Shown: positions 1,095 through 63,915 of the stretch, piece by piece
How the letters are laid out: every line of letters begins with the position of its first letter
Position numbering within the stretch: the first letter of the stretch is position 1
Program-made: the position numbers and the translations under genes
Notes under the pieces: model-generated
Told to the model about the DNA's origin: nothing
Databases searched by the model: none
What the model saw: the letters and a program-made list of their open reading frames with translations, nothing else
Assembly (NCBI GenBank): GCA_963807965.1
Contig: CAWEDU010000009.1
Span: forward strand, 35,577 to 99,576
From: an uncultured Thermoplasmatales archaeon
GTDB lineage: Archaea; Thermoplasmatota; Penumbrarchaeia; Penumbrarchaeales; Penumbrarchaeaceae
Direction of reading: 5' to 3'
DNA: 64,000 nt

Positions 1095-2867
1095 TCAATC
1101 CCGTCCAAAGAATCCTCTGAGAACAGGATGCATCTCCATCATCTGTTCCTTGCCTATCTGCTCATAGAGACGTATGATGATACCTACAGTTAATAGCACA
1201 CCTGTTCCAGAAGTCGAGCCTACCGTCCCAACCATGTCAGCCAAAGCTGCAAGGAGACCTACAAAAGCACCCGAGATAACCGTGACAGTAGGAATATAGC
1301 GGTTAAGGACCTTTTTAAGGACCCTTGGATCCCTTCTGAAACCAGGAATCCTCATTCCTGAGCTCTGTATCTGTTTGGCTACCGCTTCGGGCCCCATATT
1401 CGTTGTCTCTATCCAGAACTTTGCGAATAGGATGGAACCCACCACCATGATCCCCACATAGATCAAAACATGGACAGCGACCTGCCAATAATCGTGGTCC
1501 CCAACATATCCTCTATACCGGTCCCAATTGATCAAGGGAAGGAGCCAGGATTGGAGACCGTTGACCCTGGAGACATACCAAGCCAGACCTCCTGAAGGTG
1601 AAGTGGATCCTGTATCGTAGAATCCGATCCTCCAATTCTCTCCAATTATTGGAATGGTCTTGAACTTAGGATGGTTCCAAAGGAGCAATGAGAACATATT
1701 GATGTTTGCGAGCAATGCCGACATCAATATGACAGGGATATTTGAGGCATATATCAACCTTATCGGATACCGGCCCCTAGCTCCTCTGGCCTTAGCATGG
1801 GAAAGAGGTAGCTCTATCTGGGTGGACTCAGCATAAGCAACCACCAGGAATATCACTACTGTCGAAAGGAGAGCCACCATGGGGTTCGGAGGCGAAAGGA
1901 AGATGGTCTCGAAACCACCCGAAGCAAGTTCCCTGATCCCCCCAGACATATTTTCTAGGATATACCAGGTCTTGGGGATGGTTCCCGCTGGAATACTGCC
2001 ATAGCTATCAACAAGTCGGTCAAGATTGTATTGGGCAGCGGTGGCCTTCCCAAGTGGTATCCAAGAAATGGTTCCCTGGAAGATCGCCTGGGATACGCCT
2101 GCTGCGATGAACATAGATATTCCGGAACCGATCCCCCACTTTGAGATGACCTCATCCATAAGGAATACGAGATAAGAACCAAATATTATCTGGAAAATGA
2201 TGACCATTCTGGCCCATCCAATTCCAATGTCCCCCATCCAACCGGAACTCGATGGAGTTAAGTACCCATATACTTGGGGGATGGCTTCAACGAATATCAT
2301 TACGAGCACGAGGACCTTCTGGACACCCTGATAGATGGCCTTGTCCTCGGCCTTCTGAAGGTCCAGATTGATGATCTTTGCACCCGAGAACAACTGCATT
2401 ATAATGGAACCTGTGACAATGGGTCCGATACCCAGATGCATCAAAGAACCATTTGCTCCAGCAAGTATTGCCCTGAATTCGGAGAATATATCAATACTTT
2501 CTCCGGAAAGACCGTAGAGCTGAACGTTACTCAGGAAGAAATACAATATCAGGGTTCCGAACGTCCAAAGCATCTTGGTCCTGAATTTCACGTGACCTTC
2601 TGGTTTCTTGATGGCTGGCCACTTCTCCGATATCGATTTCAGTCCATAGAGTTTGGAGTTCTCACCAGCATAGGTGACCATCATTCCGATAAGAAAGAAC
2701 ACAAGGGCGATTGAAAGTGCGATTACAATGAAGAGCGAGATCTCTGCAAAATTATTGAAGTCAGCATCTCGCCACTGCCAGAAATAGACAATGACCATCG
2801 TCGCAATATAGGCGATGGCCACCCAGATGGCCTTCCTGTAATCTCTTTCGACAGCCATAGAACACAC
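1095..2867 (-). CDS. secY: Preprotein translocase subunit SecY. About 60 N-terminal residues (two extra predicted TM helices) are in frame ahead of the usual SecY start, so the true start may be the internal Met near 2684.
   Basis: 590-aa ORF with the SecY hallmark …KFRTKMLWTFGTLILYFFLSNVQLYGL… and a multi-TM profile. Sits at the 3' end of the L30-L15-SecY block as in other archaea. Confidence 0.9.
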   Translation of the reverse strand: MCSMAVERDYRKAIWVAIAYIATMVIVYFWQWRDADFNNFAEISLFIVIALSIALVFFLIGMMVTYAGENSKLYGLKSISEKWPAIKKPEGHVKFRTKMLWTFGTLILYFFLSNVQLYGLSGESIDIFSEFRAILAGANGSLMHLGIGPIVTGSIIMQLFSGAKIINLDLQKAEDKAIYQGVQKVLVLVMIFVEAIPQVYGYLTPSSSGWMGDIGIGWARMVIIFQIIFGSYLVFLMDEVISKWGIGSGISMFIAAGVSQAIFQGTISWIPLGKATAAQYNLDRLVDSYGSIPAGTIPKTWYILENMSGGIRELASGGFETIFLSPPNPMVALLSTVVIFLVVAYAESTQIELPLSHAKARGARGRYPIRLIYASNIPVILMSALLANINMFSLLLWNHPKFKTIPIIGENWRIGFYDTGSTSPSGGLAWYVSRVNGLQSWLLPLINWDRYRGYVGDHDYWQVAVHVLIYVGIMVVGSILFAKFWIETTNMGPEAVAKQIQSSGMRIPGFRRDPRVLKKVLNRYIPTVTVISGAFVGLLAALADMVGTVGSTSGTGVLLTVGIIIRLYEQIGKEQMMEMHPVLRGFFGRD

Positions 2868-3863: not shown

Positions 3864-4799
3864 TGAACCTCACCTCCATCCGTTTGGACCGGTTCCTCAA
3901 CTCCCAGAACAGGTCCTGAAAGATGTTTCAAGGCGATCCTCTGGCCCTTTTGTACCCTCATCAGAGTGGTTCCCTTTAGTGCATCCATTACCGCCTTGGC
4001 ATTGTTGACTGTGGTCTTGGTCTGTCCCCTGGAGAATCCCCAGGCATCTCTGATACCGGCTAATTTCAGTATCTTCTTAGCCACATCTCCTACTGCCAGA
4101 CCCACTCCACGGGGAGCAGGTCTAAGTGTAACGGTTGTGGACCCCGCCCTGCCTTCGACCTTGTAAGGGAAGGGAATGTGGGTTCATGCATCCGCATTCC
4201 CAAGATCCGCAGCCTCTGTTAAGCTCTATCATGTTGAGCTTCGCATTATCAATGGCCTTTTTTATGGTAGGTCCAACTTCTTTCCCACGTGCTGAACCCA
4301 GTCCAACATATCCATTGCTGTTGCCAACGACAACTGTGATAGAGAACCGGGTCCTCCGTCCGGAATCGGTCATCCTCTGGACCATGTTGACCTTTAATAC
4401 CTCATCAACGAGGTCTTCACCAATTATTGTATCAACTATCTGATGTTCCCTTAAAGGAAGACCAGAGCTCAGAGCATCATGCATAGAGGATACCTTCCCA
4501 GCCTTGACAAGGATTCCGAGTTTTGTCTTGGGATCCCAATCTTCCTCCTCGAACCTATCCCTTTTTGGACCTCTACTCTGTCTCCCCGGCCTTGATGAGC
4601 CCCTCCCCCTGGAGTCACCTGCAGGTTTTACAGTTCCTTTGGTAAGGTTTGGTCTCTTTCCCCGTTCTGTTTCTTCCTGGGTCTTGACAGCCACATCATC
4701 GCGTTTATCCTCCGGGATATCGACCTCGGCCAAGTCCACGGGTTTATCGGGATTTTCTTTCACTTCTTCTACCTTCTTCTTATCTTCGGTCATGGTCAC
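3860..4799 (-). CDS. rps5: Ribosomal protein uS5 with an apparent frameshift near 4165-4175.
   Basis: The 225-aa N-terminal ORF contains the S5 dsRBD and ends …[14 protein letters not shown]. The next frame reads …[44 protein letters not shown]… (81-aa ORF 3860-4105). The junction is at a CCC/GGG homopolymer. Confidence 0.85.
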
Positions 4800-60557: not shown

Positions 60558-61433
60558 GTGAGGATGAAGCTTGAGGTAAGGGAACTCACCGATACGAAAT
60601 GCTCGTTCGTTGTGGATCAGGTAAGACCCGATGTGGTAAACACAATCAGGAGGAGCCTCGTATCCGAGGTTCCAAAAATGGCAATAGATGAAGTGGAGTT
60701 CCATATGGGCCCCATCAGAGATGAAGAGGGAAATGAGTATGATTCCAATTCTGCTCTCTTTGATGAGATGATAGCCCATAGGCTTAGCATGGTACCCATT
60801 CCTACCGATCTTGAGAATTATACCTTCAGGGACCAATGTGAATGCGGCGGTTCCGGCTGCCCTCATTGTACCATTATCTATGTAATGAACAAGAAGGGAC
60901 CTTGCACAGTTTACTCTGGAGACCTTCAACCTCTTGGTGATATGAGCCTGAGGATCAAGGAGGAACTCATCCCTATAGTCAAACTCAAAGAGAAACAGGC
61001 CCTGCTCATATATGCAACTGCTGTGATGGGTAAGGGAAAGACCCATGCAAAATGGCAGCCAGTTACGATCTGTGGGTATATGAACTATCCAAAGCTAGTG
61101 GTCAATAATGATGTCAAGATCGATGATCCCGAGGCTGTCATCAAGGTTTTCCCCGAAGGGGTCCTTGTGATCGAAAAGGGGAAGATCGTTGTTAAGGACC
61201 TTAAGCCCCTTGAAGATAAGGACCCGTCCTATTACGAATCCCCCATTCTGGATGCTCTCGACGGATCTGAGAAGAAGATCATCGAGATCTCTCATGAAGA
61301 TAATAAATTCGTGTTCAACTTCGAGACCGATGGTTCAATCACCTCCAAGGATGCACTTAGTCATGCACTGAACTATCTCTCTGATTTCTACGAAGAACTA
61401 AGAGAGGAGATCTCAGGACTTGATGAAGCTTAA
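60558..61433 (+). CDS. rpoD: DNA-directed RNA polymerase subunit D (Rpo3)
   Basis: 291-aa ORF, follows S11 as in other archaea. Dimerisation domain with a Cys cluster CECGGSGCPHC. Confidence 0.8.
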   Translation: MRMKLEVRELTDTKCSFVVDQVRPDVVNTIRRSLVSEVPKMAIDEVEFHMGPIRDEEGNEYDSNSALFDEMIAHRLSMVPIPTDLENYTFRDQCECGGSGCPHCTIIYVMNKKGPCTVYSGDLQPLGDMSLRIKEELIPIVKLKEKQALLIYATAVMGKGKTHAKWQPVTICGYMNYPKLVVNNDVKIDDPEAVIKVFPEGVLVIEKGKIVVKDLKPLEDKDPSYYESPILDALDGSEKKIIEISHEDNKFVFNFETDGSITSKDALSHALNYLSDFYEELREEISGLDEA

Positions 61434-61492
61434 ATATTCAATGGACTCTCTGCAGACCGAGGTATCTTACCTTCGGTTCATATTCATACGCT

Positions 61493-61548
61493 CTGAACCC
61501 CGACAGCCTCAAGTCGTGACCACTAAAACATTGCGAGGGGAGCTCAGA
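61493..61548 (+). repeat. Partial direct duplication of the tRNA-Leu upstream leader plus the first ~15 nt of the tRNA 5' end. The second copy lies at 61681-61735.
   Basis: gaaccccgacagcctcaagtcgtgaccactaaaacattgcgaggggagctcag matches gaacccgacagcctcaagtcgtgaccaccataacattgcgagggtagctcag with 4 differences. The ~135 nt between the copies contain palindromes ccgggaacaagttcccgg and ttgaccatgggtcaa. Confidence 0.7.
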
Positions 61549-61718
61549 ACCCTTTGACCATGGGTCAAAGCGTTCACGGAAAGGGCACCTTCGGTAGCCC
61601 AACTTGGTCATATCCGGGAACAAGTTCCCGGGCCGTTGACCAATCTGTGGCGGTCACTTCACGATCACACGCATCCGCCCCGAACCCGACAGCCTCAAGT
61701 CGTGACCACCATAACATT

Positions 61719-61805
61719 GCGAGGGTAGCTCAGCTTGGTCAACGGCGCTAGATTGAGGGTCTAGTCCTTAGTGGTTCCTGTGTTCAAATCACAGCCCTCG
61801 CACCA
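61719..61805 (+). tRNA. Candidate tRNA-Leu (anticodon GAG), class II with a long variable arm and encoded CCA.
   Basis: Hand fold: acceptor GCGAGGG/CCCTCGC, 3-bp D-stem with a large D-loop, anticodon stem CTAGA/TCTAG with loop TTGAGGG (U33, GAG, R37), 13-nt variable arm, T-arm CTGTG-TTCAAAT-CACAG, discriminator A, then CCA. Confidence 0.6.
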
Positions 61806-62310
61806 TTTTCTTCTCGTTAATATTAAATTGATACAGAAAATGGTGCTCTAAAACGCTGACACTCGATGAAAAATGATGATAGGCGATACAACCGTTTTTC
61901 ATCTTAACCTTAGAACTTAGATTGACGTCATATTTACTACAGTTCTAAGGTCACAGCCCTCGCACTATAATTTCAAAGATTTTACGTGTAATATTAAATT
62001 GATACGAAAAAATGGTGCTCTAAAACGTTGACACTCGATGAAAAATGATGAGTACGGAGATTACAGACCGTTTTTCATCTTAACCTTAGAACTTAGATTG
62101 ACGTCATATCCAATACAGTTCTAAGGTCACAGCCCTCGCACCATTTTCTTCTCGTTAATACTTAAATTGATACAGAAAAATGGTGCTCTAAAACGCTGAC
62201 ACTCGATGAAAAATGATGATAGGAGATACAGACCGTTTTTCATCTTAACCTTAGAACTTAGATTAACGTCATATTTACTACAGTTCTAAGGTCACAGCCC
62301 TCTTCTATGA
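61806..62310 (+). repeat. Array of three tandem ~165-175-bp modules immediately 3' of the tRNA-Leu. Each has a TATA-like box, two conserved inverted repeats (hairpins) with hypervariable loops, a tRNA-3'-end-like terminus (…GGTCACAGCCCTCGCACCA) and a T-rich tract.
   Basis: Units at ~61806-61967, 61968-62143 and 62144-62310 are >90% identical outside two variable patches. IR1 is gatgaaaaa…tttttcatc. IR2 is ccttagaact…agttctaagg. A degenerate fourth 3'-end copy (acagccctc) lies near 62343. Confidence 0.75.
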
Positions 62311-62367
62311 TTGAAATTATTCGAGCTGATTATTCACTGGACTACAGCCCTCTAATCATCTTTGTTT

Positions 62368-63915
62368 TCAAGATAGAGGATCTCTTGTATACTTACCATC
62401 CACGATCCTCATGATCTTGGCAGGATTCTCATCCTTCAGATCATCTGGCAGATATCTTTGGTCAAAATTCTGGAAGGCTACCGGTCTAAGCCATCTTTTT
62501 ATGGACATCATACCAACAGATGTTGTCCACGGAGCTGTTGTGGCAGGGAAAGGACCTCCATGTTGCATGGCATGGCCCACTTCAACTCCAATGGGGATCC
62601 CATTCATTATGACCCTCCCAACCTTTTCAGAAAGGACCTGAACAACAGAAGAAAGATCATCATCTTCTTTCCCTGTGATCACAGTACCTGTCAATTGACC
62701 TTCAAATGTCGTAATGGTCCTGAGAAGGTCCTCTCTATCGGTACATTTAACGATCAATGTGACAGGACCGAACCTTTCCTCATGAAGTAGAGGTTCTCTT
62801 CGAAATAATGCTGAAGATGATACCATCATCGTATTATCGAATACTATGGATGTTTGACCACTATCATAACTTCCTCTTTGGATCTCCAATCCTTCCACAT
62901 CCATTAAAGCAGAGAGTCCATCCTCCAAATTATTAAGGACCCGATCACTTAGTAGAGGTTGGCATTTGCAAACGATCATTCTCTCTCTAAGGGATCCAAT
63001 GAAATCATCCAAATTCGATGGTCCTTCCAATAATATCAGTCCGGGTTTTGTACAGAGCTGACCTGATCCGTGGAGGACCGCTCCTGAGATCCTCATTGCG
63101 ACGGAAATGGGATCTTCCCTTAATGCGTTCTCAGTTACAATAACTGGATTAATACTTCCCATCTCACCATAAAAAGGAATCGGTTCATTCCTGGATTGGG
63201 CTGCATTATGGAGTGATATGCCTCCTTTTCTACTACCAGTGAAAGCAGCAGCTTTGATCAAAGGGTGGCATACGATCTTCGATCCAACTTCTTCTCCCGT
63301 TCCTTGGACAAGTGAAAATGTTCCTGCTGGCAGGCCGTTCTCTTCAATTGCACTTTCCAGAGTCGATCCCAGAAGCTCGTTGGTCTCTGGATGGGAGGGA
63401 TGACCTTTGGCCAGGACAGTGCACCCTGCAGCAAGTGCGGATACGGTATCTCCACCACATACTCCGAATGCAAGCGGAAAATTGGATGCTCCAAATACAG
63501 CGACCGGACCCACGGGGATCAGGATCCTTCTGATATCTGGTTTAGGTGAAGGGAACCTATTTACGTCTCCCAGATCGATGATGGCTTCCTGATATGAACC
63601 CTTCTCTATCAGTTCGGCAAAGGATCGGAATTGATCGCTTGTCCTTTTTAACTCTCCTCTCAACCTTTTAGATCCTATCGCTGTTTCCCTGTCTGTGATC
63701 TTAATAAGGTCTTCTCTAATGTGTAACAGTTTATCCCCCAAGCACCTCAAGAAAGAAGCTCTCTCGTGCCTTGGGACGTTCTTGAAAAATTGAAAAGCTC
63801 TCTCTGATTCCTCTATTATGTTATCAATATCTTCTGTTGGAGTGTCAGTGAATTCCTTTTCGGCAGGTTTTCCTGTTCTTGGATCTATTCCTCTAAAAGT
63901 TACTGTCAATATCAT
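62368..63915 (-). CDS. Aldehyde dehydrogenase family protein (alpha-ketoglutaric-semialdehyde/2,5-dioxovalerate dehydrogenase-like, NADP-dependent type).
   Basis: 515-aa ORF with ALDH features …FTGSRKGG…, catalytic Cys context …GQLCTKPG… and C-terminal …GGPFPATT…. Confidence 0.7.
   Translation of the reverse strand: MILTVTFRGIDPRTGKPAEKEFTDTPTEDIDNIIEESERAFQFFKNVPRHERASFLRCLGDKLLHIREDLIKITDRETAIGSKRLRGELKRTSDQFRSFAELIEKGSYQEAIIDLGDVNRFPSPKPDIRRILIPVGPVAVFGASNFPLAFGVCGGDTVSALAAGCTVLAKGHPSHPETNELLGSTLESAIEENGLPAGTFSLVQGTGEEVGSKIVCHPLIKAAAFTGSRKGGISLHNAAQSRNEPIPFYGEMGSINPVIVTENALREDPISVAMRISGAVLHGSGQLCTKPGLILLEGPSNLDDFIGSLRERMIVCKCQPLLSDRVLNNLEDGLSALMDVEGLEIQRGSYDSGQTSIVFDNTMMVSSSALFRREPLLHEERFGPVTLIVKCTDREDLLRTITTFEGQLTGTVITGKEDDDLSSVVQVLSEKVGRVIMNGIPIGVEVGHAMQHGGPFPATTAPWTTSVGMMSIKRWLRPVAFQNFDQRYLPDDLKDENPAKIMRIVDGKYTRDPLS

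What the first reader, a model, noticed from the sequence alone, without database searches (positions are those of the whole stretch)
61493..61805. Partial duplication of tRNA-Leu leader plus 5' end, with intervening palindromic segment
The ~55-nt segment directly upstream of the tRNA, together with the tRNA's first ~15 nt, is duplicated ~185 nt further upstream with 4 mismatches. The DNA between the copies carries perfect palindromes (ccgggaacaagttcccgg, ttgaccatgggtcaa).

This locus therefore has 5'-end duplication upstream and 3'-end duplications downstream. That pattern could be the footprint of repeated site-specific recombination at this tRNA gene, or a duplicated promoter/processing signal.

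It could also be a disrupted older tRNA copy: the first copy reads GCGAGGGGAGCTCAG versus GCGAGGGTAGCTCAGC in the intact gene.
Basis: seen in the sequence. Interest (0 to 1): 0.6.

Follow-up and report, generated by a model that had tools for sequence, protein, structure and literature searches.

The report
Decayed tRNA-Leu 5' copy in hairpin insert
The duplicated piece upstream of this archaeal tRNA-Leu gene is a dead partial copy of the gene's 5' end, split by a small widespread intron-like module and followed by an inverted copy of itself; the same kind of unit recurs, varies in number or is missing in related genomes.

Summary
61485-61547 repeats 61672-61733 (56/63 identical; 49-nt core with 3 mismatches; spacing 186). 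The intact tRNA-Leu(GAG) is 61719-61805.

It is neither a promoter duplication nor a gene with an intron spanning both copies. The upstream copy is a pseudo-exon: tRNA positions 1-15 (U8>G), a 55-nt insertion (61548-61602), then positions 16-23. After it come a short palindrome (61614-61631) and an antisense copy of the tRNA D-arm and leader (61632-61657).

This layout (sense copy, hairpin, antisense copy, new leader, gene) recurs upstream of tRNA-Leu in about 15 related Thermoplasmatota assemblies. It is cleanly absent in four and tandemly repeated in others. Its hairpins covary.

The 55-nt insertion has the core AACCC-hairpin-GCGTTSACGGAA. That core was found in at least 120 metagenome contigs, inside tRNA and rRNA genes of several archaeal phyla. 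It has no Rfam family, and I found no paper that mentions it.

Best reading: a recombination-generated, probably mobile, hairpin unit at the tRNA 5' end, now transcribed as a structured leader. The mechanism that generates it remains inferred.

The parts
61485..61532 (+). DR1 leader: upstream copy of the tRNA-Leu 5' leader (CATACGCTCTGAACCCCGACAGCCTCAAGTCGTGACCACTAAAACATT)
   Evidence: Aligned to 61672-61718.
61533..61547 (+). Sense arm S, part 1: copy of tRNA positions 1-15 with U8>G (pseudo-exon)
   Evidence: The equivalent copies in relatives carry deletions or mismatches.
61548..61602 (+). Intron-like insertion ('module A', type I). Core AACCC-hairpin-GCGTTCACGGAA is 61548-61581; a second hairpin follows at about 61583-61600.
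   Evidence: Pattern match with 0 expected by chance. The same core occurs in at least 120 metagenome contigs inside tRNA and rRNA genes. Hairpin covariation is shown.
61603..61610 (+). Sense arm S, part 2: CTTGGTCA, equal to tRNA positions 16-23
   Evidence: Read directly from the sequence. L009, L012, L151 and L110 have the same arrangement.
61614..61631 (+). Centre hairpin CCGGGAAC-AA-GTTCCCGG
   Evidence: Replaced by other, compensated hairpins in L156, L011 and L110.
61632..61657 (+). Antisense arm A: GCCGTTGACCAATCTG is complementary to tRNA positions 13-28; GGCGGTCAC is complementary to the leader sequence GTGACCACC
   Evidence: Inverted repeat I1, 16 nt, 94%. The corresponding arms in L002, L011, L110, L151 and L156 extend over the acceptor strand and leader.
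61672..61718 (+). DR2 leader directly upstream of the functional gene
   Evidence: In L012 and L018 the copy next to the gene differs from the native-type leader kept by the upstream copy.
61719..61805 (+). Intact tRNA-Leu(GAG) with encoded CCA
   Evidence: ARAGORN; Rfam RF00005, 44.4 bits.
61789..62302 (+). Downstream tandem array, 3.1 units of about 170-176 nt. Each unit ends in a copy of the tRNA 3' end (TCACAGCCCTCGCACCA). Each begins with a loop followed by GAAAATGGTGC, which is antisense to GCACCATTTTC.
   Evidence: TRF score 827; repeat families D1-D6. Homologous units with covarying hairpins occur in L001-L003, L005-L007, L016 and L151.
62344..62368 (+). Last, degenerate 3'-end copy (ACAGCCCTCTAATC) joined to the native-type trailer ATCTTTGTTTTC
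   Evidence: D3. In relatives the same trailer hairpin follows either the tRNA directly (L010, L013) or the last unit (L002, L003, L151).

Best explanation
WHAT IT IS. The upstream copy is a non-functional, displaced 5' fragment of the tRNA-Leu(GAG) gene: about 48 nt of leader plus tRNA positions 1-23. It is one arm of a 186-bp hairpin-type unit. The order of the unit is: sense copy of leader and tRNA 5' part, short palindrome, antisense copy of the same segment, a new leader, then the intact gene.

The sense arm is also split after position 15 by a 55-nt insertion. [quoted passage not shown]

ORIGIN (inferred). The unit arose by DNA recombination at the 5' end of the tRNA gene. Most likely a small, non-autonomous, structure-dependent element that carries its own copy of the target was inserted. 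The crossover regenerated an intact gene and pushed the old 5' end and promoter-proximal leader upstream. Repeated events or unequal crossing-over produce arrays. The mirror-image process at the 3' end made the downstream array.

The pseudo-exon, being free of selection, kept or acquired the intron-like module and point mutations.

PRESENT STATE (inferred). The unit is transcribed as a long 5' leader and removed by RNase P cutting at 61718/61719. Its local helices (sense:antisense arms, module hairpins) keep the pseudo-exon from competing with the true 5' strand.
For: SHOWN: the gene and the decayed copy.
- There is an intact tRNA plus an upstream copy with U8>G.
- The copy continues to position 23 across the module.
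- The antisense arm exists (I1).
- The upstream copies decay in several lineages: deletions in L003, L149 and L156, mismatches in L012 and L149, insertions in L002, L010 and L011. The gene itself stays essentially invariant.

SHOWN: presence, absence and copy number.
- L016 and L018 differ by a clean 151-nt indel whose ends fall within a 34-nt identical stretch.
- Of 21 loci with an intact tRNA-Leu, most carry one or two units, and L004-L006 and L016 carry none.
- Tandem units occur in L013, L149/L150, L110 and L041.

SHOWN: which copy keeps the native leader.
- In L018 and L012 the upstream copy keeps the native-type leader and the gene-proximal leader is different.
- In L110 and L105 the TATA-like box sits upstream of the first partial copy.

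SHOWN: generality and structure.
- The same architecture occurs at another gene, tRNA-Leu(CAG), in a different genomic context (L110).
- Partial 5' or 3' copies flank tRNA-Phe, Tyr, Lys, Met, Gly, Arg and Ala genes in module-bearing contigs.
- The inserts are structured. In the class-B units 93% of cells are paired and 8 of 28 pairs show double compensatory changes; 0 of 500 shuffles reach this.
- The window unit folds at -56.8 kcal/mol, z = -4.0, on the + strand, against z = -2.0 on the - strand.

PRECEDENT. A tRNA 5' fragment with different intron content lies upstream of a reconstituted tRNA-Thr, separated by a recombinase-bearing insertion, in Caldiarchaeum (PMC3293823).
Against: - No integrase, transposase or Cas1 lies in or next to the arrays in any locus examined.
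- No free or viral copy of the unit, its long leader or the downstream unit was found in IMG/VR.
- The arms, including the antisense arm, match the local tRNA at both the GAG and CAG loci. A pre-formed mobile unit does not predict this; local templated copying explains it more simply.
- Only the intron-like modules, not the centre or leader segments, are shared between those two loci.
- Compensated hairpins and conserved single-stranded motifs over 61-95% RpoD identity look like purifying selection on a transcript. That could mean a host function rather than a scar.
- Some population 'polymorphisms' (L153, L154) may be misassemblies of repeats.
Confidence: 0.45

Rival explanations
1. Local replication error. 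A fold-back or template-switch event (DUP-INV-DUP type) at a short palindrome copied the leader and tRNA 5' part first in inverted and then again in direct orientation. Unequal crossing-over later changed the copy number. No mobile element is involved.
For: The sense and antisense arms both match the adjacent tRNA at two different loci: GCGAGGG at the rpoD locus and GCAGGGG in L110. The unit is essentially one long palindrome around a short hairpin. No recombinase is nearby. Nested sense/antisense copies of tRNA 5' segments occur even inside the module's second hairpin.
Against: The gene-proximal leader differs from the native-type leader kept upstream in L012 (24-nt extra segment) and L018 (9-nt patch). 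The same architecture recurs at many tRNA genes and at both gene ends, which is unlikely for rare replication accidents. Hairpins are maintained by compensatory change over long divergence.
Confidence: 0.2
2. Functional structured leader or ncRNA. The unit is a host-selected RNA co-transcribed with tRNA-Leu. Its anti-D-arm segment and decoy 5' copy control folding or maturation of the pre-tRNA. Alternatively, RNase P releases the unit as a stable roughly 186-nt RNA.
For: There is covariation in the hairpins and conserved unpaired motifs such as CCGG..CCGTTGACC. The + strand is more structured than the - strand. Promoter-like boxes lie upstream of the first copy, so the unit must be transcribed to express the tRNA. 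The antisense arm pairs better with the real D-arm (15 of 16) than with the decoy, and the MFE of the whole precursor uses that pairing.
Against: The unit is absent from close relatives with an identical tRNA (L016; L004-L006). Copy number ranges from 0 to 3. Arms carry lineage-specific deletions and the decoy decays. There is no Rfam family.
Confidence: 0.15
3. Retro-mediated intron bypass. An ancestral tRNA-Leu gene carried the D-loop insertion. A snap-back cDNA of spliced precursor (antisense, loop, sense, all intron-less) recombined into the gene. This left the old intron-bearing 5' part upstream and gave an intron-less functional gene.
For: The intron-like insertions are found only in the upstream sense arm, never in the antisense arm or the functional gene. 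The same combination of '5' fragment + module after position 15 + restart of leader and intact tRNA' occurs for tRNA-Lys (L105) and tRNA-Tyr (L083).
Against: Class-B units (L007, L013, L018, L149) have the architecture without module A. In L110, two units with identical centre, antisense and leader parts carry different modules at different positions. No reverse transcriptase was seen. In L105 the new leader is unrelated to the native one.
Confidence: 0.07
4. One intron-containing tRNA gene. Exon 1 is the upstream copy (61533-61547), a 186-nt intron follows, and exon 2 starts at 61734.
For: The module starts exactly where family members place their 5' splice site. AGCT in the D-stem is self-complementary, so a 4-bp central helix with two 3-nt bulges can be drawn between the two copies. 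The MFE of the full precursor pairs the upstream acceptor strand with the tRNA 3' end.
Against: An uninterrupted gene is present. In strict register the intron-side helix is 1 bp and the outer helix 3 bp. The upstream 'exon' has U8>G here and is truncated or mutated in several relatives.
Confidence: 0.03
5. Duplicated promoter or processing signal, or an assembly artefact of a repeat.
For: The leader is duplicated together with the first 15 nt. The leader motif CATCCGC...CCAATC is conserved in the clade. Repeat arrays are sometimes scrambled in assemblies (L153).
Against: There is no AT-rich BRE/TATA-like box inside the repeat; AT-rich boxes lie at 61430-61441 and 61478-61489, upstream of the first copy. 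The architecture is reproduced in independent assemblies from different samples and assemblers: L001, L151, L152 and L155.
Confidence: 0.05

Closest known systems
Integration footprints of archaeal integrative elements at tRNA genes (SSV-type and pNOB8-type integrases)
   Same: A direct repeat of part of a tRNA gene flanks inserted DNA. An intact gene is regenerated. An empty site exists in relatives.
   Different: The insert is only about 140 nt and has no integrase. The repeat covers the leader and 5' end rather than the 3' half. The insert contains an inverted copy of the target and evolves with compensatory changes.
tRNA-Thr 5' fragment upstream of a reconstituted tRNA-Thr in Caldiarchaeum subterraneum (Sugahara et al. 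2012, PMC3293823)
   Same: A 5' fragment with intron content different from the functional gene lies upstream as a direct repeat. The authors interpret it as integration with an intron-bearing or intron-less att site.
   Different: There the insert is 1.8 kb and encodes a recombinase. Here it is a 0.14-0.19 kb hairpin unit, recurrent across a clade and often tandem.
Archaeal BHB introns at canonical and non-canonical positions, and intron transposition in Thermoproteales (from my own knowledge: Fujishima et al. 2010)
   Same: The 55-nt insertion shares its conserved core with insertions that interrupt tRNA and rRNA genes. Several of these show textbook hBHBh' junctions (L034, L060, L095, L104).
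   Different: The window copy sits in a pseudo-exon and has no BHB. The family carries a near-invariant 12-nt motif (GCGTTSACGGAA) across phyla and also occurs in leaders, trailers and intergenic DNA.
Single-strand hairpin recombination sites: CTX-phi attP(+)/IMEX elements and integron attC (bacterial; from my own knowledge)
   Same: The integrated layout is target copy, loop, inverted target copy, rest of element, target copy. Tandem arrays grow next to the target.
   Different: Those systems are bacterial and use known Xer or IntI recombinases. Here no recombinase, no ssDNA form and no cargo are known.
Casposon arrays at the 3' end of tRNA-Leu in Methanosarcina mazei, and tRNA-end targeting by the Aciduliprofundum casposase (from my own knowledge)
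   Same: Successive insertions next to a tRNA 3' end each duplicate about 14-17 nt of it, as in the downstream array.
   Different: The 170-nt units have no terminal inverted repeats and no Cas1. The upstream repeat (about 60 nt) is far longer than a casposon target duplication.

Membership tests
Archaeal BHB intron (for the 55-nt insertion 61548-61602) | Interrupts a tRNA or rRNA gene, and its removal restores a colinear gene | tested here: met
   Family level: virtual removal gives an ARAGORN tRNA in 32 of 126 instances, at the anticodon loop, D-loop, variable arm, T-arm and acceptor. Thirteen instances lie in or next to archaeal SSU/LSU rRNA genes. Window copy: removal restores colinearity with tRNA positions 1-23, but only within a truncated pseudo-copy.
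Archaeal BHB intron (for the 55-nt insertion 61548-61602) | hBHBh' motif: two 3-nt bulges separated by a 4-bp helix at the junctions | tested here: not met
   No 4-bp central helix in any register for excision at 61547/61548 and 61602/61603. Relatives: a strict motif in 13 of 132 instances against 5 in a displaced control. Clear cases are L034, L060, L095, L104 and L139 (L034 also worked out by hand).
Archaeal BHB intron (for the 55-nt insertion 61548-61602) | Cleaved by the splicing endonuclease EndA and ligated by RtcB | not testable with these tools
   Needs RNA data or enzymology.
Integrase-mediated integration footprint at a tRNA gene | Direct repeats made of part of the tRNA gene flank the insert, and an intact gene is regenerated | tested here: met
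Integrase-mediated integration footprint at a tRNA gene | Empty site in relatives with the indel boundaries inside the repeat | tested here: met
   L016 vs L018: a 151-nt indel bounded by 34 identical nt. L004-L006 have leaders of 32-35 nt.
Integrase-mediated integration footprint at a tRNA gene | Integrase or recombinase gene within or next to the insert | tested here: not met
   No ORF fits in the unit. Neighbouring ORFs are RpoD, an aldehyde dehydrogenase-like ORF (named from its sequence only, not run against a family library), a TPR protein, GrpE, zinc-ribbon proteins and others.
Integrase-mediated integration footprint at a tRNA gene | Free element (virus or plasmid) carrying the matching attachment site | tested here: not met
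   IMG/VR scans with the tRNA 3' end, the long leader, the downstream-unit motif and the module gave only chance hits or none. Plasmid and other collections were not scanned.
ssDNA hairpin recombination site (CTX-phi attP(+), integron attC) | Inverted arms on one strand fold into a duplex that mimics the target site | tested here: met
   Sense and antisense copies of the tRNA 5' region: (I1). Closing helix conserved in 7 of 7 class-B units.
ssDNA hairpin recombination site (CTX-phi attP(+), integron attC) | A tyrosine recombinase acts on the folded single strand | not testable with these tools
   No candidate enzyme identified; needs biochemistry.
Intron-containing or split tRNA gene spanning both copies | No functional gene without splicing, exon under purifying selection, and a BHB at the junctions | tested here: not met
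   An uninterrupted tRNA is present. The upstream copy has U8>G and decays in relatives. The best register has an intron-side helix of only 1 bp.
Duplicated archaeal promoter | BRE/TATA-like AT-rich box about 25-35 nt upstream of the start, inside each repeat copy | tested here: not met
   By reading the sequence: the repeat 61499-61532 / 61685-61718 is GC-rich. AT-rich boxes lie only upstream of the first copy. The available scan is for sigma-70 promoters and is not informative for archaea.
Casposon / CRISPR-like target-duplication array (downstream array) | Short (14-17 nt) duplication of the tRNA 3' end at each insertion, terminal inverted repeats, and Cas1 | tested here: inconclusive
   A 17-nt repeat and a leader-proximal array are present. 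No terminal inverted repeats were seen by eye; the CGTCAATT motifs are in direct orientation. No Cas1 is nearby.

The most novel reading that the evidence does not exclude
Two linked novelties are not excluded by the evidence.

(1) AACCC-hairpin-GCGUUSACGGAA may be the core of an undescribed mobile mini-insertion or BHB-intron family. It targets stable-RNA genes (tRNA introns at many positions, 16S/23S rRNA, leaders and trailers) across Thermoplasmatota, Altiarchaeales and Aenigmarchaeota.

(2) tRNA genes in these archaea may be colonised at both ends by miniature hairpin elements. Each would carry a sense and an antisense copy of the tRNA end, that is, a folded single-strand mimic of the target as in CTX-phi attP or integron attC. 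They would insert next to the gene, duplicate its end and build arrays. This would be an archaeal, cargo-less counterpart of hairpin-site recombination.
Probability: 0.25. Interest if true: 0.85.

Novelty: new variant of a known kind. Interest (0 to 1): 0.62.

Why it matters
Partial tRNA copies are usually read as simple scars of virus or plasmid integration. Here the 'scar' is a conserved, structured, copy-number-variable unit built from sense and antisense copies of the tRNA end.

It also carries a small module that is spread through tRNA and rRNA genes of several archaeal phyla. If these are mobile, they offer a concrete, testable route for how archaeal tRNA genes gain introns, fragments and split forms, which is a long-standing question. 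They would also be a possible archaeal analogue of hairpin-site recombination.

On the practical side, such units confound tRNA annotation and the assembly of MAGs around tRNA genes.

Tried and rejected
- Rfam, all families, E up to 10, on 61300-62450: only the tRNA itself. Nothing for the module, the unit or the downstream repeats.
- C/D-box, H/ACA, K-turn, hammerhead, T-loop and riboswitch-like readings of the motifs were considered by eye and dropped, because the defining boxes or pairs are absent.
- The sigma-70 promoter and terminator scan is uninformative for an archaeon.
- IMG/VR scans. The tRNA 3' end gave 2 chance hits in high-GC phage contigs. The long leader gave 0 hits. The downstream-unit motif gave 23 chance hits, none with tRNA fragments. 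The module gave 0 hits.
- Exact look-up of the window's RpoD with two start choices was not on record. Homologues were used instead.
- RNAalifold on a MAFFT alignment of module cores gave no structure because of register problems. I replaced it with a direct stem count.
- Pfam on ORFs next to the arrays found no integrase.
- A literature search for the motif strings gave 0 papers. Three topical searches found no description of the module or the units. The omega-RNA circRNA paper was checked and is not relevant.
- Strand test by folding energy of the module hairpin: the minus strand folds better, but only because C.C mismatches become G.G. This is not informative.
Full report
1. CONTEXT

The window ends with an archaeal S13-S4-S11-RpoD operon. 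RpoD is 60558-61433 and the ORFs are listed. One tRNA gene follows, tRNA-Leu(GAG) at 61719-61805 (ARAGORN; Rfam tRNA 44.4 bits).

RpoD relatives are all uncultured Thermoplasmatota. The best is 95% identical, in an EX4484-6 MAG. The protein is on record from a 430-kb contig.

2. THE OBSERVATION

The duplication is real. 61499-61547 and 61685-61733 are 94% identical over 49 nt. With one indel the repeat extends to 61485-61547 vs 61672-61733, 56 of 63 identical. The longest exact stretch is 25 nt, against at most 11 in shuffles.

The repeat covers about 48 nt of leader and tRNA positions 1-15. The upstream copy has G instead of the universal U8.

The two palindromes are hairpin-type inverted repeats at 61554-61568 and 61614-61631.

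After position 15 the upstream copy is interrupted by 55 nt (61548-61602). It then resumes with CTTGGTCA, which equals tRNA positions 16-23 (61603-61610).

Next come:
- TAT;
- the hairpin CCGGGAAC-AA-GTTCCCGG;
- GCCGTTGACCAATCTG (61632-61647), which is 15/16 complementary to the D-arm region of the real tRNA (I1);
- GGCGGTCAC, which is complementary to GTGACCACC in the leader.

So the 186-bp unit is, in order: sense arm (leader + tRNA 1-23, split by an insertion), centre hairpin, antisense arm, a short spacer, a second leader, then the gene.

Folded alone, 61533-61671 gives -56.8 kcal/mol, z = -4.0, and 26% of the ensemble in one structure. In that structure the pseudo-acceptor and D strand pair with part of the insertion, and positions 17-23 pair with the antisense arm. 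The opposite strand is less structured (z = -2.0).

The whole precursor instead pairs the antisense arm with the true D-arm and the pseudo-acceptor strand with the tRNA 3' end. The local helices are therefore what would prevent misfolding if they form first.

4. COMPARATIVE EVIDENCE AT THE SAME LOCUS

Twenty-five species-level genomes and nine further assemblies were fetched. The spacer between rpoD and tRNA-Leu is 32-35 nt in L004-L006, 77 nt in L016, and 210-430 nt elsewhere.

The long spacers all have the same logic.
- L002, L011 and L156: the antisense arm covers tRNA positions 30 to 1 and the leader, so the unit is one long imperfect palindrome.
- L007, L010, L013, L018, L003 and L149 ('class B'): tRNA positions 1-24 are followed by two hairpins and CCGTTGACCAAGC.

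For class B, RNAalifold gives a three-way junction closed by the pseudo-D-arm:antisense helix. Of the cells, 93% are paired. Eight of 28 pairs show compensatory double changes, and 0 of 500 shuffles reach this.

Centre hairpins differ between lineages but stay complementary:
- CCGGGAAC/GTTCCCGG;
- CCTTCAAC/GTTGAAGG;
- CCCTGGAAGC/GCTTCCAGGG;
- CCACAGC/GCTGTGG.

5. GAIN, LOSS AND COPY NUMBER

L016 and L018 are close relatives that differ by a clean 151-nt indel. Its boundaries fall in 34 identical nucleotides.

In L018 the upstream copy keeps the leader seen in L016, and the leader next to the gene differs in a 9-nt patch. In L012 the upstream copy has the short clade-typical leader. The gene-proximal leader there is the long form that the window has in both copies.

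Units are tandem in L013 (two identical), L149/L150 (two), L110 (two) and L041 (three or more).

Upstream copies decay in several ways:
- deleted 5' ends in L003, L149-u1 and L156;
- mismatches in the window, L012 and L149-u2;
- small extra insertions in L002, L010 and L011.

The gene itself is essentially invariant. This decay, the intact gene, and the lack of a canonical BHB in any register rule out a single intron-containing gene.

6. THE 55-NT INSERTION IS A MEMBER OF A WIDESPREAD FAMILY

Its core is AACCC, a hairpin, then GCGTTSACGGAA. The core occurs once in the window, with 0 expected by chance, and in L001, L002, L009, L011 and L012.

Contexts:
- Canonical anticodon-loop introns of many tRNAs.
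- D-loop, variable-arm, T-arm and acceptor insertions. Virtual removal gives a tRNA in 32 of 126 instances.
- Archaeal 16S and 23S rRNA genes (13 instances).
- tRNA leaders and trailers.
- Some intergenic sites.

L034 shows a textbook hBHBh' motif: TCGGC | CTCT | CG^A | AACCCTTTT ... AAAAGGGTT | GGAG | CG^A | GCCGA. A strict scan finds such motifs in 13 instances against 5 in a control. That supports many, but not all, members being BHB introns.

The hairpin covaries. It averages 5.4 consecutive pairs against 3.7 in shuffles, and it often carries a C.C mismatch.

Bona fide introns of this family occur after position 15 (tRNA-Asn, L122) and at about 24/25 (tRNA-Leu(TAA), L070). These are the two places where the pseudo-copies carry them.

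Contigs with the module are named by NCBI as Thermoplasmata, Candidatus Altiarchaeales and Candidatus Aenigmarchaeota.

No Rfam family matches. No paper in the searchable library contains the motif or describes it. The function of the invariant single-stranded GCGUUSACGGAA is unknown.

7. GENERALITY OF THE PARTIAL-COPY PHENOMENON

L110 has a different gene, tRNA-Leu(CAG), in another genomic context. It carries two tandem units whose sense and antisense arms match that tRNA (GCAGGGG). A TATA-like box sits just upstream of the first copy. The two units are identical except that one carries the type-I module after position 15 and the other the type-II module after position 23.

In the fetched contigs, partial 5' copies lie 60-350 nt upstream of tRNA-Lys, Tyr, Phe and Met. 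Partial 3' copies lie 45-120 nt downstream of tRNA-Gly, Arg, Ala and Phe. For L105 and L083 the layout is 5' fragment, module, restart of leader and gene. The chance expectation per tRNA is below 1e-4 (my estimate).

8. THE DOWNSTREAM ARRAY FOLLOWS THE SAME LOGIC

The array spans 61789-62302, with 3.1 units. After the tRNA 3' end GCACCATTTTC comes a 25-nt loop containing a conserved TCGTCAATT-plus-AT-rich motif. Then follow the antisense GAAAATGGTGC, two covarying hairpins (the second again with CGTCAATT in its loop), and the next copy of TCACAGCCCTCGCACCA.

The native-type trailer ATCTTTGTTTTC is found after the last, degenerate copy (62344-62368). In relatives it follows either the tRNA directly or the last unit.

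9. INTERPRETATION

Shown:
- the upstream copy is a decaying pseudo-exon inside a conserved, structured, copy-number-variable unit;
- the first palindrome belongs to a mobile-looking intron family;
- promoter duplication and a spanning intron are not supported.

Inferred: the unit arose by recombination at the tRNA 5' end that regenerated an intact gene and displaced the old 5' end.

I favour insertion of a small non-autonomous element carrying its own target copy, at 0.45. The reasons are:
- clean empty sites;
- native-type leaders kept by the displaced copy;
- arrays;
- the mirror-image 3' arrays;
- recurrence at many tRNAs;
- the Caldiarchaeum precedent (PMC3293823).

The layout 'target, loop, inverted target, rest, target' is that of integrated CTX-phi-type elements (my own knowledge). 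This makes a folded single-strand attachment site an attractive but untested idea.

Against this reading:
- no recombinase is nearby;
- no free form was found;
- the arms always match the adjacent gene, which a local template-switch duplication explains more simply (rival, 0.2).

Compensatory evolution also keeps open a host function for the leader RNA (0.15). A cDNA-mediated intron bypass would explain why insertions sit only in the sense arm, but it fails for units without the module (0.07).

10. CAVEATS

All sequences are metagenome assemblies. One assembly of a species with identical RpoD is scrambled (L153) and one lacks 51 nt of the module (L154). These may be real polymorphisms or assembly errors.

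No transcript data exist.

Noticed in passing
window 61789-62302 (and L001-L003, L005-L007, L016, L151): Downstream 170-176-nt tandem units fall into two conserved subfamilies, with hairpin GATGAAAAA..TTTTTCATC or GACCAAAAA..TTTTTGGTC. Each carries the motif TCGTCAATT followed by AT-rich sequence twice. This could be BRE/TATA-like promoters or protein-binding (arm-type) sites. There is no Rfam match.
   Followed up: partly
window 62368-63915 (- strand) vs L001 4590-4640: The 515-aa ORF next to the array, which looks like an aldehyde dehydrogenase from its sequence (not run against a family library), is reduced in the 95%-related genome L001 to its first roughly 13 codons. This is a ~1.5-kb indel right beside the tRNA array. 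Genes downstream of tRNA-Leu differ in almost every relative, so this is a synteny breakpoint.
   Followed up: partly
L002 ~4400-4470, L003, L010, L013, L151 (after the last 3' copy or directly after the tRNA): A conserved trailer hairpin, ATCTTTGTTTTC...GAAAACAAAG, is followed by a second small conserved hairpin, GCCAGCCRAATC-nnn-GATTTGGYGAGG. Its function is unknown.
   Followed up: no
window 61496-61520 and 61682-61706; L001, L012, L151: The 'long' leader differs from the clade-typical short leader by a ~24-nt insertion, GAACCCGAC..CCTCAAGTCGTG. It starts with AACCC and forms a small hairpin (CGAC..GTCG). It may be another mini-insertion of the same kind.
   Followed up: partly
L002 3955-3971, L010, L011, L148 (inside the upstream tRNA copies): A further 13-17-nt insertion (consensus about AGCTGGGYR..AAA) sits at positions 9-14 of the pseudo-copies. 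It looks like a third mini-intron type and is absent from the functional genes.
   Followed up: no
L154 3443-3480 vs L151/L152/L155 (identical RpoD, different samples): One assembly lacks 51 nt of the module (GCTTAG|CCTCGT|CTTGGTCA). Another (L153) has scrambled leader, tRNA and unit order. These are either population polymorphism or misassembly of repeats.
   Followed up: partly
L072 ~2345-2470 (reverse strand of the locus): Downstream of tRNA-Phe the module occurs in antisense orientation, directly before a copy of the tRNA T-arm and acceptor 3' end. A sense and antisense 5' copy pair lies upstream without any module.
   Followed up: partly
L115 tRNA-Met (2490-2650, reverse strand): The functional tRNA-Met carries an anticodon-loop intron with a variant core (ACCCTTTTC..GAAAAGCGTCTGCGGAA). 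It has two partial 5' copies upstream and a 3' copy downstream. The exact-pattern scan therefore undercounts the family.
   Followed up: no
L073 downstream of tRNA-Gly (reverse strand, ~600-660): Three copies of the acceptor 3' strand CGGCCGGTGCA are spaced about 50-58 nt apart. Each is preceded by a small hairpin, giving a T-arm-like hairpin plus 3' strand.
   Followed up: no
L031, L064, L125, L131, L132 (SSU); L074, L099, L109 (LSU): Archaeal rRNA genes carry the same module as an insertion. L031's 16S match spans 2410 nt against a 1478-nt model, which implies several insertions.
   Followed up: partly
L013 ~2370-2470: A run of N (masked stretch) lies inside the upstream array, next to a partial copy 'attcGAGGGTA'. 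A third unit may be hidden there.
   Followed up: no
window 61456-61477: A hairpin, ACCGAGGTA-TCTT-ACCTTCGGT, lies between the rpoD stop and the first leader copy. A hairpin at the equivalent place is present in all relatives, including L016, which lacks the unit.
   Followed up: no
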